Source: a virus (Duplodnaviria > Heunggongvirae > Uroviricota > Caudoviricetes). From it: a DNA stretch of 46,805 bases. Made by a program: the position numbers. The stretch lies in IMG/VR virus record IMGVR_UViG_2703718823_000005; one strand, written 5' to 3'. The first letter of the stretch is position 1. Each line of letters starts with the position of its first letter. This document shows, piece by piece, positions 9,001 to 21,000 of this stretch.

Positions 9001-12000
9001 GATTTACCACCTGGCTGGGGATTACTTCACGTTGTTAACGGAAGAGTACGGAAAGTACATGGATGGCCCAAGGGGAATTGCTGTTGGGGTAACCCTGAAG
9101 ATAAACCTTTTATTGGGAATAAGCAGGTTGAATGCGATTACATGTTATCTGCATTAAGGCGCATGGAGTTGAGAGGGCACCTTAATGAAATATATGACGG
9201 TGTAATTGTTAATAAGAAAGAAGGAAACGCGGCATGATCACTATTACCAAAGAGCGACTACTGACAATCAAGCAGTGGCGCGAAACATACGGACCTGGTA
9301 GCAACGTTGTACTGCCAGCAGAAGAAGCGGAAGAACTGGCACGAATTGCTCTGGCAGCGCTGGAAGCCGAGCCGATAGGTTTCCGTTGCAGGCGCAATGA
9401 TAACCTTGGTGATTGGAGTTACGTATATCATCGAGAGCCAGATGATTTTGAGCGCAAACATTTAGTGATAGAGGGCATTTACGCCGCCCCTCCAGCACCA
9501 GTAGTACCGGAAGAAAAACCAATGCCTAATCCTCTTAGCATGTACGCGGTTGATGCGGTTGCCGCTATTGCAGAGGTAAGAGGCTGGAATGCCTGCCGCG
9601 CCGCCATGCTTCAGTCCGGAAACTTTCGGGAAAACAAGAATTCGTCAACCAATAATTTTCGGGAAATCGCGGAAACGTCAACCAACTATCCGGTAATTCC
9701 TAGTGAGGTGTTGTCCGCAATCCAGAAGGTTGCCAAGATTCGTGCCGATTTCGATGATTTTGACGGTGACAGGCGAGGTATCGGTGATTGTCTGGATGAG
9801 GCTGAGCAAGAGCTTATCGTTACCATTAACAAATATGCCAGTCAGTTGGCAGCAGAACCGATAGCGACTAATGACGTTCGAGAGCAAACAGCCGTTCCGC
9901 CAGTTCCGGTAACTCCGGATGGTTGGATAAGCTGTAGTGATCGAATGCCAGAAATGGGAGAGCGACAATACTATGTGTTAGCAGCTGACTTTAAAAACAA
10001 CTACCCACCAAGCATCCCCAACACTCAGGTCGGCGTATATGGCGACTGGTTTAATGATGGCAATCCCACTTGGGATGACGGTGATGGCGAAGACCTGCAT
10101 CTCAAAGAAGTAACCCACTGGATGCCGCTACCAGAACCGCCGAAGGAGGTAAGCCAATGACCTAGCCTGAAGCATTTGCAATTGTAGTGGCTGCCATTTC
10201 GATCGCACTGATTGTTTTTGCGATTTGCCGCTGGGGGTAAAATAGTTCACCTGCATGGAGATTTGATGCCGGGGAATTGTGGGGGAGCATTCAAACCTCT
10301 CCCCTTCCCGGTTAAAGACTCCATTGCTTTGCGGTCAGAGAGATACATCAGCTTCATCAGCTTAATGAAACGCATAGATCCGCCATGCTTTTTCAGCAAA
10401 TACGCTGCCATTTGCGCAACTTTTTCTTCATTAAACATAAATCGGCTCTCTGTCTCACATGAAATACTCTTTCTGACTATATGTTAATAGCTCCGGTTAT
10501 TACAGGTTAATGTGTGTTTATTCCTTAATCAGCCCCGCACTTCCGTACGGGGCCATTTCTGTTAATCCACTCCCACTTTTTTGTTGTACTCGCGGTTAAA
10601 GCGATCCACGGCAACCTTCATATCCCGCTCTACCGATTTCACTATCGCCGCCTGCTGCGCCAGACTGAGAGAACTGTCGGCATAAATGGCATCACGCTGT
10701 TTACGCAAATCCTTCAGTCTCTTCCGGGTATCCTGCATAAGCCCGTTCATCGACAATTTTCCGTTGTTCTCGTCAATGAACGCCGTTCTTTCTGCACCGG
10801 TCAGACTCTTCAGCTCTGCGTGATACTGCGCAATCTCTGTCATCCGGTCGTACATCTTCTGCTGGTCTGCATACGGCATCACCTCCCCCGAAATTTTCCC
10901 CAGGAAGGGCACCTGCTGTTCCGGTATATCAATACCATTCAGCGATTTCACCGCCGCATCCGTGGTTTTGGAAATGAAGCGCCCTGTCCCTCCGGAGATA
11001 TAGTCAATCCAGAATTTCAGCGATTCCGGTGTGATATCCACCGCGCCGGGACGGTACTGGCTGCCACCTGAGAACGCATTCAGCCAGGATGCAAACGCCT
11101 TGTACGCTTCTGGCGTTGAACGTCTTCCCAGCTGGCTGTCAGGTTTTGGTGTACCAAACGGCATGTTCTCCTGGTAAATCTGCGCCCCCATGAAGTTTTC
11201 ATTCATGGCAAGGTTCGCAAACGGACGCAGAATGGTCGGCGCTGCATTTTTCAGCAATGCCCCGGACAGTGTTTCCGACGTTTCACTGCCCACAGGACTG
11301 AATGCCCCAAGCACACCACCAACAACATTACCGGCAGCACGTGAAGCGGTCAGGTCGCCCGCTGCCACCCCTTCGGCTGTGTGACCAAGCAGGAAGAAAA
11401 CGTTGTACCCGTAAGGCAGAGGAATACTCCAGTACTCTCCGGCCTTGCCCCCGAACACCGATTTCATAATGACGAGGTTACGCTCTTTCACATGAGACGG
11501 TACTTTGTCATACCAGTTAACCCCGTCATCATCCTCACCCGCCACGCTGCGGTTAAGCGAGCCAAGCAGATAACCCGCTCCCACAGCGGCAAGCGCGATT
11601 TTCTGCGGAACATTCAGATTCTTCCAGCGAAGGCGCTCCAGTAAAGGTCCCTCACCATTAAGATGTCCGAGCGTTCTCACCAGATTTGCCGTTCCCTGAA
11701 TACTGGCGTTGGCGAACATGTACAGCGAGTTCATCAGCGCCCCCTGCTCACCACGACGGTTAAAGTTCACCGTCATGTTTTTGGCAAGAGACGCCGCCTG
11801 CTGGCGTGACAAACCGGCATCACGGGCGTGTTTATAGGCAGAAAGACGCAGAGCGTTTTCAACCGCCCCGTTGGCATCCTCGACAAGGTTAAGGAACGAA
11901 TTCCATGCACCGATACTCTGGCCTTTCCATCCTCCCTTCGCCAGCGATACAAGGCGATCCATTTCCTTCTGCTGGCCTTCAAGGTCACCCATGTTAAACC

Positions 12001-18000: not shown

Positions 18001-21000
18001 CTTTTGCCAGATCCATTTTCTGGCGATCAGTAAGCTGTGCGTGCTGCGGGTCGGCGTCAATGGACAAAAACGTCTGCTGAAATTTCGGTGACTGCGCCAG
18101 CTCAGAGTAATCCGCATTAAGAACAGCATCTGCTGCCGCCATTGCACTCTGCCCCTGTGCACTGGCTGTGGAATGGGTGATCAGGCCCGCCTGGAATAAA
18201 TCCGGCATTTTTTTATCGACAGCTTCTGCTGCCAGTGCCGTGGCTCTTTCCGGCTGCATCCCTGCCGCGATGTATTTTTTCTCCAGCCCGGCGGTCAGCA
18301 TTTTTCGCAGTGTGACATCACCCACCTTTTTAGCCACACCGCCAGCAACCATATCAGGTACAAGCGCACCAATCAGGTTTACACCCTTCGCCACCCAGAC
18401 CGCAGAATCATCATAGCCTTCGGTCATCGGCGTATTCAGCGCACGAACTGCACCCGGCGACATCTTACCGGTCAGCCATTCATCAGTGGCTTCAGCACCA
18501 TCACTGACAGCCTTACCGGTTGCCTTCAGACCTTTACCGACAGTATCAGTAACCGCGTTTTTGCCATCAGGCAGGGTATCGATGACCTCATCAGCCCCCC
18601 TGCTGCCACCGGCAAAAATATCCTGCACAGTTGCGACACCCGGCAGCCCCATACGGCTGAACTCATTTAAAATACGCGCCCCTGTTTTTACCGGGCTCTG
18701 AATCATCGCATCACCGAGTCCACGGGCCATTTCCCCTGTTCCCCGGACGGACTGGGCGAAACCTTTACCCATTGTTGGCAATACATCGCCCAGGCTGAAC
18801 GACGTACTGTTATCCTTCCAGCGATTCGGATCAGAGAAAAATGCTTCATAGCTGTCAGTTTCGCCGGGTTGCTGAATGTTCAGGCTGTTACGATTCTGGT
18901 TACCGAGTTGCGCCTCAGGACGCTGTTCCTCTGAATAGGCCATACAGACTCCATAAAAAAACCCGGCACAATGGCCGGGCATCAGGAAATGGTATTAATG
19001 GAATATCGTGAATTACTGGGCGTAATTCTGTTTCAGTCCACGGATAAACTGAGATGCAGATGAAGCACTTTCATCTCTGGCCTGTTCCCCCCTGGCCTTT
19101 TGAATACGGAGAAAATTCGCATACCCGTTCTCCAGCAATTTCTGATTCTGAGGCTCCAGCATTTCAGGCTGACGGGCCGCTACATTTCTGGCAAATGACA
19201 GCTTATCAGGATCATCTCCCGCCCAGTTGATAACCTGTTGCTGAAGTTTTTGTTGCTGAATTTTCTGTTGATGCGGTTGTGAACCAGTCGCAGCATAATA
19301 TTCATCCACCGCAGCCTGTGCATTACCGCCATTCTTGATCGCGTCCGCCGCGACGTTGCTGGCCCCCTTCTGAAGCTCTTTCAGAGAAAGTCCCTGCTGC
19401 TTCGGCATAAAATAACCATAATTTTTCGATATCTCTGCAAATTTGCTGCGATCCCTGACCTGAGCGATAGCCTTATCAACGGGTATCGCCAGCACGGTTT
19501 GATCATCAGGGTGCGCACTGCCGTATTCTGTTACAGGTTTATGTGCTGTAGAGCCATCACTGTATGTGAGATCAAGGCCGATAAGTATGTACCCTTCCTG
19601 CTGTGCCGGTACTATACTGCCAATCCTGGCCTCTTTTATCGTCTTTTTCCCGGTTGAATCGGGCATGCCAATACGCTGTTGCAGTTCCGGGCCAAACACC
19701 CCGGAAAGGACATCAAGATTCTCCGGCGTATTAAGTGAAGCGATAGCCCTGTCTGGCTTGTCATCAAAGATTTTTTGCAGGTTGTTCACGGCCTGACCCG
19801 CTTTCGCTACATAGCCATCATTCGCCATCAGCCTCAGCGGATTACCCTCTGACAACTGGCCGTAAAGACGCATTGCTGCATCCCGATCGCCAGCATCCAC
19901 AGCCTTTCCAAGCGCCGCCATCACAGGCTGATCGCGCGCCAGCATATCGTTATACTCAAGCCGTCGCTGGTTGTATTTCTGCATCCGGAGTCGCTGCTGC
20001 TCCATACCCAGCGACGCATTCCGGTAATTCTGGTTAGCGTTAAACTCCCTTTCCTTCAGTGCATAATTACGGTCGTCAACTTTGGCTCTGTAATCAAAGT
20101 TCCGCTGATCAACGTTTTTATTATGTTCAAACTGAGACTGCGCAAACTCAAAATCGCGCTCGTTATTTTTCTGTTGCCGGGCAAGCTGTGCTTCACGCAG
20201 ACCAAGCTCCTTACGACGGGTCATTGCCTGGTCAACCGTGCTGAATCCGGCAAGTAACCCCTGTGCAAATCCGCTCATTCACCACTCCTTAAAACAAAGA
20301 ACCAGCAATGCCGCCAATTACTGCTCCAGCAACAGCACCAACAGGACCACCAACGGATGCGCCAATAGCCGCCCCCGTACCAATGCCCGTACCGATATTC
20401 TGCTTGTTCTGCGCTTTCTGTTGCGCCGCCATCTGTTTGTTCGCAGCCTCAATTTCTTCACGTCGTCGGTCTGCGTCACTTATTCCCTGTAATGCCTCAC
20501 GCCGTGACTGATTCGCAATATCCAGTAAGCCGTACCCCATATTTCCTCCTTACGCTGCCACCAGTTGTCCGCCAACACTCAGTTTCTGTCTTGCCGGTGC
20601 AGAAGCCCCCGTCAGTATGTTCATCTGGCGATCCTGTTCGGCTTCACGGATACCATTTTTCGCGCCAGCAATTGCCAGGGCATTACGTAACCCCAGCGTA
20701 TTACTGTCGGGATTATCCGGGCGGCTTACCCCGTATCTCGCCATCTGGTTATCCTGCGCCATCTGCGCTGTACGGAGACTGGAAGTGGCAAGGCCGCCCA
20801 CCCGGGCAAGCTGTGCATTCATCAGGCTGTTGTTCTCGCCAAGGTCAGCCAGCCTTGCCACGCGGGGCAAATATCTGGTTCGCCAGTCGTCGTATTGTTG
20901 GCGTGTCAGCGCTGCTGACGTCTGCCAGTCACCCTGTGGACGGGCAGCTCCGGTATAACCGTATCTCGCAAGTGTTTCGTATTTACCGTACTCCATAATC

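What the first reader, a model, noticed from the sequence alone, without database searches (positions are those of the whole stretch)
10562..18982. Giant 2793-aa ORF with two HExxH zincin-like motifs
One uninterrupted 8.4-kb reading frame is the last gene of the virion module, following several low-complexity putative internal proteins. It contains HEWFH and HEIIHH motifs consistent with two zincin-like metallopeptidase domains, and long regions I cannot assign. Giant multidomain proteins at this position in phages are often packaged and injected to counter host defences, but this is inference. My recollection is that 933W-like Stx phages carry a large ORF of about this size whose function is unresolved.
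Basis: partly seen in the sequence, partly recalled or inferred. Interest (0 to 1): 0.7.

Follow-up and report, generated by a model that had tools for sequence, protein, structure and literature searches.

The report
Giant injected multi-enzyme phage protein
The 8.4-kb gene is real and is the already-described giant virion protein of short-tailed Shiga-toxin phages: a cysteine-free protein that is probably injected into the host cell, carrying two zinc-protease domains and an RNase-like domain, and whose front end proves to be related to the injection domain of phage N4's virion RNA polymerase.

Summary
Window 10562-18943 (minus strand) is one intact ORF of 2793 aa. It has HEWFH at aa 1284 and HEIIHH at aa 1551, where chance predicts 0.036 HExxH motifs. 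The gene is 99.9% identical to Shigella phage 75/02 Stx gp68. It is the same protein as Sp5 ORF80, which is essential, and phi24B gp47, which mass spectrometry finds in virions.

The proposed architecture has five parts:
- an N-terminal domain (aa 1-440)
- an acidic low-complexity linker (aa 441-895)
- an LPD5-zincin-LPD1 module
- a second zincin, then MuF-C (RNase-like)
- a 900-aa C-terminal module with no solved homolog

Three results do not appear in the papers I read:
- The N-terminal domain is homologous to the lipid-binding N-terminal domain of N4 vRNAP (hhalign probability 98.6%, E 5e-16).
- More than 50 other giants share this N-terminal domain, each with different cargo.
- The protein, its four upstream neighbours, and the ejection proteins of T7 and N4 all lack cysteine.

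Verdict: a known polyvalent ejection protein. The mechanism is inferred and protease activity is untested.

The parts
10562..18943 (-). Complete CDS: 2793 aa plus stop, about 308 kDa, no cysteine.
   Evidence: It is 99.9% identical to 75/02 Stx gp68.
17624..18943 (-). N-terminal domain, aa 1-440, homologous to the N-terminal domain of N4 vRNAP. It is always N-terminal in more than 50 other giants of 2000-4665 aa.
   Evidence: Exhaustive HMMER search. hhalign against a schitovirus vRNAP N-terminal profile: probability 98.6, E 5.1e-16, giant 172-427 aligned to N4 gp50 215-446. Reversed and shuffled controls give probability 2.4 or less. None of the giants matches the N4 RNAP domain.
18338..18403 (-). 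Most hydrophobic segment of the protein, AVWVAKGVNLIGALVPDMVAGG (aa 181-202). It aligns with the start of the putative membrane-spanning helices of N4 gp50 (residues 224-278).
   Evidence: Hydropathy; alignment; N4 data.
17669..17719 (-). Glycine zipper GAAFGAAMGAPSGAVAG (aa 409-425) at the end of the N-terminal domain.
   Evidence: Glycines spaced by 4 are invariant or nearly invariant in 13 diverse giants.
16259..17623 (-). Low-complexity acidic linker, aa 441-895, rich in A/E/R/P/Q, net charge -28.
   Evidence: Homologs of the next module start aligning at about aa 900. It parallels the low-complexity linker after the N-terminal domain of N4 vRNAP.
14597..16249 (-). Conserved module aa 899-1449: an N-terminal subdomain, Pfam LPD5 (1051-1200), the first zincin core with HEWFH, and Pfam LPD1 (1361-1440). 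LPD1 carries the downstream Glu helix.
15080..15094 (-). HEWFH motif (aa 1284-1288). Associated conserved residues are H1263 (15155-15157), D1291 (15071-15073), E1375 (14819-14821) and E1382 (14798-14800).
   Evidence: This matches the phage-type MPTase of Iyer 2017, which has a His at the end of strand 2 and an Asp three residues after HEXXH.
14102..14509 (-). Second zincin domain, aa 1479-1614. It belongs to the HEXXXH clade and lies upstream of the C-terminal module in relatives.
   Evidence: In relatives whose spacing I read off, the motif lies 130-380 aa before the C-terminal module.
14276..14293 (-). HEIIHH motif (aa 1551-1556). The predicted third zinc ligand is E1607 (14123-14125).
13433..13696 (-). 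MuF-C domain (aa 1750-1837), a PBECR-type predicted RNase or RNA-binding domain. It is not a peptidase.
   Evidence: Pfam PF18819, E 1.5e-17. Iyer 2017, section 19. The AF2 model is poor here.
10571..13282 (-). C-terminal constant module, aa 1888-2791. It is mostly helical with one beta subdomain. Pfam LPD38 covers only 2476-2681.
   Evidence: Homologs of 33-58% identity cover about 98% of the module and carry different N-terminal cargo. AF2 pLDDT 87.6, pTM 0.84. No solved homolog. The fold is shared with terminal segments of many phage giants in BFVD.
18961..18980 (-). Terminator-like hairpin with a T7 tract, about 10 nt before the start codon.
19013..21655 (-). Four ORFs without cysteine (218, 150, 83 and 421 aa) directly upstream. 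They are probable internal or ejection proteins of the same cassette.
   Evidence: 0 Cys in 872 aa. Three phi24B counterparts (gp51, gp50, gp48) are clearly detected in the virion mass spectrometry but are not in the structural model; the 86-aa one has 13 PSMs. Sp5 ORF79, with the same 421-aa size and position, is essential.

Best explanation
The ORF encodes the large ejection (internal virion) protein of 933W-like short-tailed Stx phages. It is a polyvalent protein made of a constant chassis plus exchangeable cargo.

Shown here or in the literature:
- It is a single 308-kDa polypeptide.
- It is essential in Sp5.
- Peptides spanning nearly its whole length are present in phi24B virions, but it is invisible in cryo-EM maps.
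- It contains two zincin-fold domains with conserved catalytic residues and a MuF-C domain.
- Its N-terminal domain is homologous to the lipid-binding N-terminal domain of the ejected N4 vRNAP.

Inferred mechanism:
1. Roughly 20 copies (a crude estimate) are packed in the T=9 head, loosely folded like beads on a string. The second zincin and the C-terminal module probably act as the encapsidation or portal-proximal part.
2. On infection, the protein leaves through the tail ahead of or together with the DNA, in a largely unfolded state. This would explain why no cysteine is tolerated.
3. The N-terminal domain (hydrophobic segment plus glycine zipper) inserts into the inner membrane as part of the ejectosome, together with the small cysteine-free proteins encoded upstream.
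4. The 455-aa linker lets the downstream domains refold on the cytoplasmic side.
5. The chassis zincin (HEIIHH) cuts the polyprotein. The LPD5-HEWFH-LPD1 protease and the MuF-C domain act as early effectors on host protein or RNA targets that are still unknown.
For: - Identity with known proteins.
- Virion presence and peptide coverage along the protein.
- N-terminal homology to N4 gp50: probability 94.8 against the single sequence, probability 98.6 and E 5e-16 against a 9-sequence profile, with controls.
- N4 gp50's N-terminal domain inserts into nanodiscs, is followed by a low-complexity linker, and is proposed to form the inner-membrane complex while the cargo refolds in the cytoplasm. The N-terminal 998 aa of N4 vRNAP are involved in injection and the C-terminal 1400 aa in encapsidation.
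- Chassis and cargo: the N-terminal domain is always N-terminal in more than 50 giants. Their cargo includes methylase plus helicase, ddrB-ParB and InPase, and their C-terminal module is of the LPD38 or LPD39 type. The C-terminal module occurs with ART, methylase and InPase cargo and with LT_GEWL and RelA/SpoT cargo.
- Cysteine: 0 of 2793 residues, against 0.85% in the other late proteins (P about 5e-11). The 61 related giants have 6 Cys in 177,615 aa. Solo LPD5-LPD1 homologs have 0.4%. T7 gp15 and gp16 and N4 gp50, gp51 and gp52 also have none.
- Same position as the virion-associated giant of Bcep22-like phages.
Against: - No experiment shows ejection, membrane insertion, proteolysis or any substrate for this protein.
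- The Sp5 deletion mutant makes DNA-filled heads that do not bind tail-fibre antibody. That points to a role in tail assembly or stability, which a pure cargo model does not predict.
- In phi24B gels, gp47 PSMs are highest in the top slices. Most of it is therefore not cut into small pieces inside the virion, and I found no evidence of processing.
- The C-terminal module shows no similarity to the N4 vRNAP C-terminal region (probability 0.4) or to T7 gp14-16. Its encapsidation role rests on analogy only.
- The hydrophobic segments are only moderately hydrophobic (Kyte-Doolittle 1.4 or less).
Confidence: 0.65

Rival explanations
1. Periplasmic conduit with a cell-wall-degrading peptidase, as proposed in the phi24B preprint. 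In this model the protein extends the short tail across the periplasm, and its metallopeptidase digests peptidoglycan cross-links.
For: The preprint proposes exactly this. Podophages need a trans-envelope channel. Pfam found no lysozyme or transglycosylase domain in the giant, so some other wall-opening activity would be needed. Some relatives with the same C-terminal fold are named LT_GEWL domain proteins in BFVD, which shows that wall hydrolases can ride on related giants.
Against: The preprint assigns the peptidase activity to MuF-C. According to Iyer 2017, MuF-C is a BECR-fold RNase-like domain. The two true zincin domains resemble protein endopeptidases (lethal factor, PPEP, MtfA, SprT). 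They do not resemble the usual peptidoglycan peptidase folds. The LPD5-zincin-LPD1 module also occurs as solo proteins and fused to RadC. [quoted passage not shown]
Confidence: 0.15
2. Mainly a structural or assembly factor for the tail or neck. It could be a plug, a head-completion protein or an assembly chaperone, possibly energy-dependent, with enzymatic domains that are vestigial.
For: Delta-ORF80 Sp5 heads are DNA-filled but do not bind tail-fibre antibody. Mondal et al. reported a COG1483 AAA+ hit. Diffuse density in the adaptor lumen disappears on ejection.
Against: There is no Walker A motif, and no P-loop family appears in Pfam or NCBIfam. The catalytic residues of both zincins are conserved at 30% identity and below, which argues against vestigial domains. 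The protein is not seen in the ordered tail structure. Cargo exchange among relatives fits effectors better than an assembly factor.
Confidence: 0.12
3. A DarB-like anti-restriction protein that modifies or shields the incoming DNA.
For: PHROG 10089, 'DarB-like antirestriction', matches aa 2351-2681. Ralstonia and Burkholderia relatives are annotated DarB-like. Relatives sharing the N-terminal domain carry methylase and helicase domains.
Against: The PHROG match is confined to the shared C-terminal module. This ORF has no methyltransferase or helicase domain and no PADLOC hit. The annotation follows the chassis, not the DarB enzymatic domains.
Confidence: 0.05
4. Artefact: a fusion of several genes created by sequencing or assembly error.
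For: Many database entries are partial fragments on short contigs. Some GenBank records annotate several ORFs across the region.
Against: All 186 phage records with a match cover at least 80% of the 8.4 kb. The PHROG profile is full length. Peptides map along nearly the whole protein, and PSMs are highest in the top gel slices. Giants in other phages are similar in size.
Confidence: 0.01

Closest known systems
Sp5 ORF80 (ECs1242), phi24B gp47 and 75/02 Stx gp68
   Same: This is the same protein. It is 97-99.9% identical at the nucleotide level, 2793 aa long, and the last gene of the late operon. It is essential in Sp5 and found in phi24B virions by mass spectrometry.
   Different: Nothing substantive differs. 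The earlier descriptions lack the link to the N4 N-terminal domain, the cysteine observation and the correct reading of MuF-C. They also suggested an AAA+ domain, which I could not confirm.
Phage N4 virion RNA polymerase gp50 (Schitoviridae)
   Same: The N-terminal domains are homologous (probability 98.6), and both contain a hydrophobic, membrane-binding stretch. In both, a low-complexity linker follows the N-terminal domain. Both have a HExxH domain upstream of a large C-terminal region. Both lack cysteine. Both are giant proteins that are not resolved in cryo-EM of virions. In N4, gp50 belongs to a cassette with smaller cysteine-free ejection proteins.
   Different: This ORF has no RNA polymerase domain. 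Its C-terminal module is unrelated to that of N4 (probability 0.4). Its cargo is a protease module plus MuF-C. Its linker is 455 aa, against about 100 aa in N4.
'DarB-like' giant virion proteins of Bcep22-like and Ralstonia podophages (for example JC1 gp69, 4515 aa)
   Same: They share the C-terminal module and lie in the virion morphogenesis module. They are detected in virions. Portal, capsid and head-closure proteins of these phages are related to those of 933W.
   Different: They are annotated DarB-like. Relatives that share this ORF's N-terminal domain carry methylase and helicase cargo, which this ORF lacks.
Polyvalent proteins (Iyer, Burroughs, Anand, de Souza, Aravind 2017)
   Same: It has the LPD5, LPD1, LPD38 and MuF-C domains and two MPTase types that match their descriptions. 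It is encoded in the late operon.
   Different: That paper did not connect the N4 N-terminal region to other polyvalent proteins. 933W is not named in its main text.
T7 gp16 and gp15 internal core (ejection) proteins
   Same: They are a functional analogy: large, helical, cysteine-free proteins that are packaged in the head and ejected to form the ejectosome.
   Different: There is no detectable sequence similarity and no fold match. T7 gp16 is annotated with an endolysin domain.
Anthrax lethal factor, MtfA and Pro-Pro endopeptidases (zincin fold)
   Different: Sequence identity is only 6-13%, and there is no sequence-level hit to any PDB chain. The first zincin has extra conserved residues (His1263, Asp1291), and the second belongs to a HEXXXH clade.

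Membership tests
Phage-type polyvalent proteins (Iyer et al. 2017) | One large polypeptide that combines several unrelated domains, including LPDs and/or MPTase domains. | tested here: met
   Pfam finds LPD5, LPD1, MuF_C and LPD38, all above their cut-offs. Two zincin domains are present.
Phage-type polyvalent proteins (Iyer et al. 2017) | Encoded among the virion (late) genes. | tested here: met
   It is the last gene of the terminase-portal-capsid-tail operon.
Phage-type polyvalent proteins (Iyer et al. 2017) | Delivered into the host together with the DNA. | not testable with these tools
   Only virion presence is documented, for phi24B gp47. Ejection has not been measured.
Zincin-like metallopeptidase (gluzincin type) | HExxH on a helix, plus a downstream Glu on a second helix, conserved across homologs. 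| tested here: met
   First domain: H1284, E1285, H1288 and E1375/E1382 are conserved at 90% or more. Second domain: H, E, H and E1607 are invariant or nearly invariant in diverse giants.
Zincin-like metallopeptidase (gluzincin type) | Zincin core fold: a helix, a three-stranded sheet, the HExxH helix and the Glu helix. | tested here: met
Zincin-like metallopeptidase (gluzincin type) | Zinc binding and peptidase activity. | not testable with these tools
   This needs biochemistry.
N4 vRNAP (gp50) family | N-terminal domain of the N4 vRNAP type. | tested here: met
   hhalign probability 98.6, E 5.1e-16 over 229 columns, with controls.
N4 vRNAP (gp50) family | Single-subunit RNA polymerase domain. 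| tested here: not met
   No polymerase family appears in Pfam or NCBIfam. hhalign of the middle and C-terminal profiles against N4 gp50 aligns only the HExxH region, weakly. It is therefore not a vRNAP.
N4 vRNAP (gp50) family | N4-type C-terminal domain. | tested here: not met
   Profile-profile probability 0.4.
P1 DarB-like anti-restriction proteins | DNA methyltransferase and helicase domains. | tested here: not met
   Neither is found in this ORF. The PHROG 'DarB-like' match is confined to the C-terminal module.
MuF-C / PBECR predicted RNases | Match to the MuF_C profile. | tested here: met
   PF18819: E 1.5e-17, 64 bits against a 27.6-bit cut-off.
MuF-C / PBECR predicted RNases | [quoted passage not shown] | tested here: inconclusive
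   The sequence has a K-H (GVKHVV) and IASVYG. The model is poor here, and I made no alignment to active family members.
AAA+ ATPase (COG1483, suggested for Sp5 ORF80) | Walker A P-loop and an AAA+ domain. | tested here: not met
   No [AG]xxxxGK[ST] motif anywhere in the protein. No P-loop family in Pfam or NCBIfam.
T7-type core proteins (gp14, gp15, gp16) | Sequence or fold similarity; lytic transglycosylase domain. | tested here: not met

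The most novel reading that the evidence does not exclude
The roughly 430-aa N-terminal domain may be a widespread, N4-vRNAP-type membrane-inserting 'injection handle'. Together with a HEXX(X)H zincin and a roughly 900-aa C-terminal module, it would form a universal cysteine-free chassis that podophages use to deliver interchangeable enzymes into the Gram-negative cytoplasm. The known cargo in relatives includes an RNA polymerase, methylase-helicase, ART, ppGpp synthetase, pyrophosphatase and proteases. 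In Stx phages the cargo would be an injected protease pair plus an RNase-like domain that cut a host target ahead of the DNA. If so, the spread of Stx phages to new E. coli and Shigella hosts would depend on an injected protease.
Probability: 0.35. Interest if true: 0.65.

Novelty: already known. Interest (0 to 1): 0.42.

Why it matters
This protein takes up about 14% of the genome of the phages that spread Shiga toxin genes, and it is essential for making infectious particles. Its function has never been established experimentally.

Placing its N-terminal domain in the same family as the N-terminal domain of N4 vRNAP turns an 'unknown giant ORF' into a specific model that can be tested: a membrane-anchored handle, a long linker, and protease and RNase cargo delivered into the cytoplasm.

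The comparison also suggests a simple sequence signature for ejected phage proteins, namely the complete absence of cysteine. It suggests as well that a large set of phage giants share one delivery chassis with interchangeable cargo. That would be relevant to host range, to counter-defence, and possibly to engineering protein delivery by phages. None of this changes the classification: the gene and its polyvalent nature are already described.

Tried and rejected
- PADLOC found nothing.
- phmmer of the whole protein, and hmmsearch of the middle and C-terminal profiles, against all PDB sequences gave only noise.
- The C-terminal module shows no similarity to the C-terminal 1500 aa of N4 vRNAP, profile against profile, or to T7 gp13-16 and N4 gp51-53. 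The idea that the whole chassis is homologous to N4 is rejected. Only the N-terminal domain is clearly homologous. The HExxH region gives a weak match (probability 24).
- AAA+ ATPase idea (Mondal 2016): no Walker A motif and no P-loop family.
- DarB-like anti-restriction: the enzymatic domains are absent.
- The search for related loci with the N4 N-terminal domain returned only N4 itself. I built the schitovirus profile from tblastn hits instead.
- The genomic context of one solo LPD5-LPD1 homolog was a run of small unknown genes and was not informative.
- The MuF-C part of the AF2 model was poor.
- The stored phi24B supplement holds no peptide counts per gel slice, so I could not test processing.
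- I did not test any relation between the NCBIfam 'CLCA_X' hit and eukaryotic CLCA proteases.

Full report
**1. The observation**

The ORF list shows one uninterrupted reading frame at 10562..18982 on the minus strand, 2806 codons from the first ATG.

That ATG is preceded by GGAG. It gives the 2793-aa length of the RefSeq CDS of Shigella phage 75/02 Stx gp68 and of Sp5 ORF80. The 13 extra upstream codons overlap a strong terminator-like hairpin, GCCCGGC-CATTGT-GCCGGGT followed by T7.

HEWFH lies at aa 1284-1288 (window 15080-15094). HEIIHH lies at aa 1551-1556 (window 14276-14293). Given the protein's own His and Glu frequencies, 0.036 HExxH motifs are expected by chance.

The frame is not an assembly artefact:
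- 186 phage records match at 90% identity or more, and each covers at least 80% of the 8.4 kb.
- PHROG 616 aligns end to end, 2793 of 2793.
- Tryptic peptides from about residue 108 to about residue 2455 were detected in phi24B virions.

**2. Identity**

The gene is 99.9% identical to gp68 of Shigella phage 75/02 Stx (Sepvirinae). It is about 97% identical to the homolog in VT2-Sakai (Sp5) and in many Stx1 and Stx2 phages.

The left end of the window holds an integrase gene and molybdopterin oxidoreductase genes. The latter look like host DNA, so I read the window as an integrated prophage.

Two papers deal with this protein directly:
- Mondal et al. 2016 deleted Sp5 ORF80 (2,793 aa). The mutant makes DNA-filled heads that look normal but do not bind anti-tail-fibre antibody. 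The authors classed ORF80 as essential for tail formation and noted a COG1483 AAA+ hit (PMC5155283).
- A 2026 preprint on phi24B found gp47 (annotated there as 2811 aa) in virions by mass spectrometry and could not see it in any map. It listed LPD5, LPD1, LPD38 and 'a MuF-C metallopeptidase domain', and proposed an ejection protein whose peptidase digests peptidoglycan (doi 10.64898/2026.04.10.717836).

**3. Domain anatomy**

Pfam finds LPD5 (1051-1200), LPD1 (1361-1440), MuF_C (1750-1837) and LPD38 (2476-2681). Neither HExxH motif lies inside a Pfam domain. NCBIfam 'CLCA_X' spans 1182-1437 with E 6e-44, below its family cut-off. That bridges LPD5, the first motif and LPD1.

Homolog searches and local BLAST give natural boundaries:
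- a module at about aa 900-1450 that many proteins share at 30-50% identity, including solo proteins of about 480 aa;
- a sharply bounded C-terminal module, aa 1888-2791, shared at 33-58% identity over about 98% of its length by proteins whose N-terminal parts differ (ART, methyltransferase, InPase).

The stretch 441-895 is low-complexity (A/E/R/P/Q-rich, net charge -28).

**4. Are the two motifs real zincin sites?**

In an alignment of 75 sequences (27-71% identity to the query), the following are conserved at 90% or more: H1284, E1285, W1286, H1288, D1291, H1263, E1375 and E1382. Every homolog that covers the site has G-x-L-[AG]-H-E-[WL]-x-H-x-[LMVI]-D.

The second motif aligns with V-[LV]-V-A-[DE]-N...L-R-H-E-x-x-x-H-x-G-L in relatives. 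In 13 very diverse giants, H, E, H, G and a Glu about 50 residues downstream are invariant or nearly invariant. The Stx-phage lineage appears to have lost one residue, which turns HEXXXH into HEIIH-H. The downstream Glu corresponds to E1607.

An AlphaFold2 model of aa 880-1900 has pLDDT above 90 over 899-1449 and about 85-95 over 1479-1614. In both domains the order of elements is helix, three strands, HExxH helix, Glu helix.

- further down the list, SprT/Spartan, Wss1, thermolysin and neprilysin

Iyer et al. 2017 describe two types whose features match (PMC5512222):
- a phage-type MPTase with a His at the end of strand 2 and an Asp three residues after HEXXH, which fits domain 1;
- a HEXXXH clade, which fits domain 2.

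MuF-C, by contrast, is their PBECR domain. It is a BECR-fold predicted RNase or RNA-binding domain, not a peptidase. The preprint's label is therefore mistaken.

**5. The C-terminal module**

The AF2 model of aa 1880-2793 is confident (pLDDT 87.6, pTM 0.84). It is mostly helical with one beta subdomain.

In BFVD the same fold is found with TM-scores of about 0.6-0.9 over more than 900 columns. The matches are terminal segments of many phage giants, including ones named LT_GEWL, RelA/SpoT and type I methylase proteins.

tblastn finds the module in phages of Vibrio, Ralstonia (annotated 'DarB-like'), Burkholderia, Bacillus megaterium and even Methanosarcina. The Bcep22-like phage JC1 carries a 4515-aa 'DarB-like' giant in its virion morphogenesis module. 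It is detected in virions, and JC1's portal, capsid and head-closure proteins are related to those of 933W (PMC9144972).

**6. The N-terminal domain**

An exhaustive HMMER search with aa 1-460 found 99 cluster representatives. More than 50 of them are giants of about 2000-4665 aa, and in every one the match lies at the N-terminus.

Local profile searches show that many of these giants also carry the 900-1450 module and/or the C-terminal module. Nearly all have at least one HExx(x)H. Pfam scans of 13 diverse members show the following:
- Cargo: methylase plus helicase, ddrB-ParB and InPase.
- C-terminal domain: LPD39 in 8 members and LPD38 in 5.

So the family has a constant N-terminal domain, a variable middle, a HEXXXH zincin and a constant C-terminal module. 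In the relatives whose spacing I read off, the zincin motif lies about 130-380 aa before the C-terminal module. In the Stx and Salmonella lineage a MuF-C domain sits between them.

A profile of the N-terminal domain matches N4 gp50 (vRNAP) with hhalign probability 94.8 and E 5.5e-8, while seven other T7 and N4 virion proteins score 0.3 or less. Against a nine-sequence profile of schitovirus vRNAP N-termini, the probability is 98.6 and E is 5.1e-16 over 229 columns (giant 172-427 aligned to N4 215-446). Family motifs coincide: L-x-x-S-P-x-[FY], A-R-x-x-x-A, E-x-x-E-x-x-Q-G...Q...N, D...G-V, and the Gly-rich end.

Controls support the match:
- Reversed and column-shuffled versions of the target give probability 2.4 or less.
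- None of the giants matches the N4 polymerase domain, so the query profile is not contaminated by vRNAPs.

Iyer et al. state that searches with the N4 N-terminal region recovered only N4-like proteins. I did not find this link in the papers I read.

The link has functional weight:
- The N-terminal 998 aa of N4 vRNAP are involved in injection, and the C-terminal 1400 aa in encapsidation.
- In the 2026 N4 study, the N-terminal domain has predicted membrane-spanning helices at 224-278, inserts into nanodiscs, and is joined to the polymerase by a 100-aa low-complexity linker.
- That study proposes that the N-terminal domain forms the inner-membrane complex together with gp51, while the polymerase and C-terminal domain refold in the cytoplasm, having been stored as beads on a string (PMC13434306).
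- The giant's most hydrophobic segment (aa 181-202) aligns with the start of that N4 stretch.
- The domain ends in a glycine zipper, GAAFGAAMGAPSGAVAG, whose glycines are invariant across the family.

**7. Cysteine**

- The giant has no cysteine in 2793 residues. The other late proteins in the window have 0.85%. The probability of zero at that rate is about 5e-11.
- The four ORFs just upstream (218, 150, 83 and 421 aa) also have none.
- The 61 related giants have 6 Cys in 177,615 residues, and the C-terminal-module homologs 12 in 88,889.
- Solo LPD5-LPD1 proteins have 0.4%. The depletion therefore tracks the giants rather than the enzyme family.
- Known ejection proteins behave the same way. 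T7 gp15 and gp16 have none. N4 gp50 (3500 aa), gp51 and gp52 have none. The C-terminal 1500 aa of eight other vRNAPs have none.
- A review of ejection proteins does not mention cysteine.

The simplest reading is an inference: proteins that must travel unfolded through the tail and the oxidising periplasm cannot afford disulfides.

**8. The cassette and copy number**

In the phi24B proteome table, gp47 PSMs are highest in the four top gel slices, above the 80-kDa portal. Three counterparts of the upstream ORFs (gp48, gp50, gp51) are clearly detected, and the 86-aa one has only 13 PSMs. None of them is among the proteins in the structural model.

Length-normalised PSMs in the batch sample, compared with portal, nozzle, spike and adaptor, give about 20 copies of gp47. 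This is my arithmetic on the numbers and it is crude.

phi24B has a T=9 capsid and 75/02 a 60.9-kb genome. N4 packs 70.2 kb plus its vRNAP. I recall that N4 also has a T=9 head. If so, there is spare head volume for this protein, but this is inference.

The layout of small cysteine-free proteins followed by a giant mirrors the N4 cassette gp52-gp51-gp50.

**9. Mechanism and its limits**

The best-supported model is in the explanation section: packaged loosely folded, ejected, N-terminal domain in the inner membrane, linker, cargo on the cytoplasmic side. The chassis zincin would act as the processing enzyme. The LPD5-HEWFH-LPD1 protease and MuF-C would act as effectors.

What is shown:
- identity with Sp5 ORF80 and phi24B gp47
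- integrity of the ORF
- essentiality (in Sp5) and virion presence (in phi24B)
- zincin folds with conserved catalytic residues
- homology of the N-terminal domain to that of N4 gp50
- the chassis-and-cargo organisation
- the absence of cysteine

What is inferred:
- ejection
- membrane insertion
- processing
- any target

The Sp5 phenotype (no tail-fibre labelling) means the protein, or part of it, also matters for tail assembly or stability. The diffuse density in the adaptor lumen that disappears on ejection may be part of it.

**10. Verdict**

The feature is already known: it is the same protein as Sp5 ORF80 and phi24B gp47, and it belongs to the polyvalent-protein class. I therefore score it moderate.

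The residual interest lies in four points:
- the homology of the N-terminal domain to that of N4 gp50
- the shared chassis
- the absence of cysteine
- the fact that the function of an essential 308-kDa protein in a medically important phage group is still untested

Noticed in passing
window 18961-18980 (-): A strong terminator-like hairpin (7-bp stem with 6 G-C pairs, then T7) sits about 10 nt before the giant ORF's start codon, inside the late operon. Expression of the 8.4-kb gene presumably needs read-through by the antiterminated late transcript.
   Followed up: partly
window 19013-21655 (-): The four ORFs directly upstream (421, 83, 150 and 218 aa) have no cysteine at all. Three of their phi24B counterparts (gp48, gp50, gp51) are clearly detected in the virion mass spectrometry but are absent from the cryo-EM model; the 86-aa one has only 13 PSMs. 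They are probably further ejection or internal proteins. Together with the giant, they resemble the N4 gp52-gp51-gp50 cassette.
   Followed up: partly
window 345-5543: The left end of the window looks like host chromosome: an integrase gene (345-1967, -), a truncated molybdopterin oxidoreductase copy (1893-3059, +) and a full-length one (3117-5543, +). The edge of the Stx prophage therefore lies at about 5.6-5.9 kb. The truncated copy next to an integrase suggests a second integrated element.
   Followed up: no
window 23001-24000 and 27001-28000: G+C drops to 0.41 and 0.43, against about 0.52 elsewhere. By collinearity with 75/02, the dips coincide with the outer-membrane/membrane-associated protein genes next to lom and with a gp38-like ORF embedded in the tail region. 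These look like morons of foreign origin.
   Followed up: no
window 28375-30633 (-): The tail-fibre ORF is 752 aa (G+C 0.61, many tail-fibre PHROG hits including a collagen-like one). The annotated tail fibre in phage 75/02 is 494 aa, although the giant ORF is 99.9% identical between the two. An extra 111-aa ORF follows it here. The receptor-binding region is therefore mosaic.
   Followed up: no
window 10562-18943 (database fragments): Many of the database proteins matching this gene are labelled 'partial' and sit on contigs of 1-4 kb, and none returned by these searches exceeds about 1600 aa. The gene seems to be a frequent breakpoint in short-read E. coli assemblies, perhaps because genomes carry several related prophages.
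   Followed up: no
L003 (phage N4) 10524-23524; L013-L020: N4 vRNAP (3500 aa), gp51 and gp52 have no cysteine, and neither do the C-terminal 1500 aa of eight other schitovirus vRNAPs. T7 gp15 and gp16 are also cysteine-free. A zero-cysteine count may be a general signature of ejected phage proteins.
   Followed up: partly
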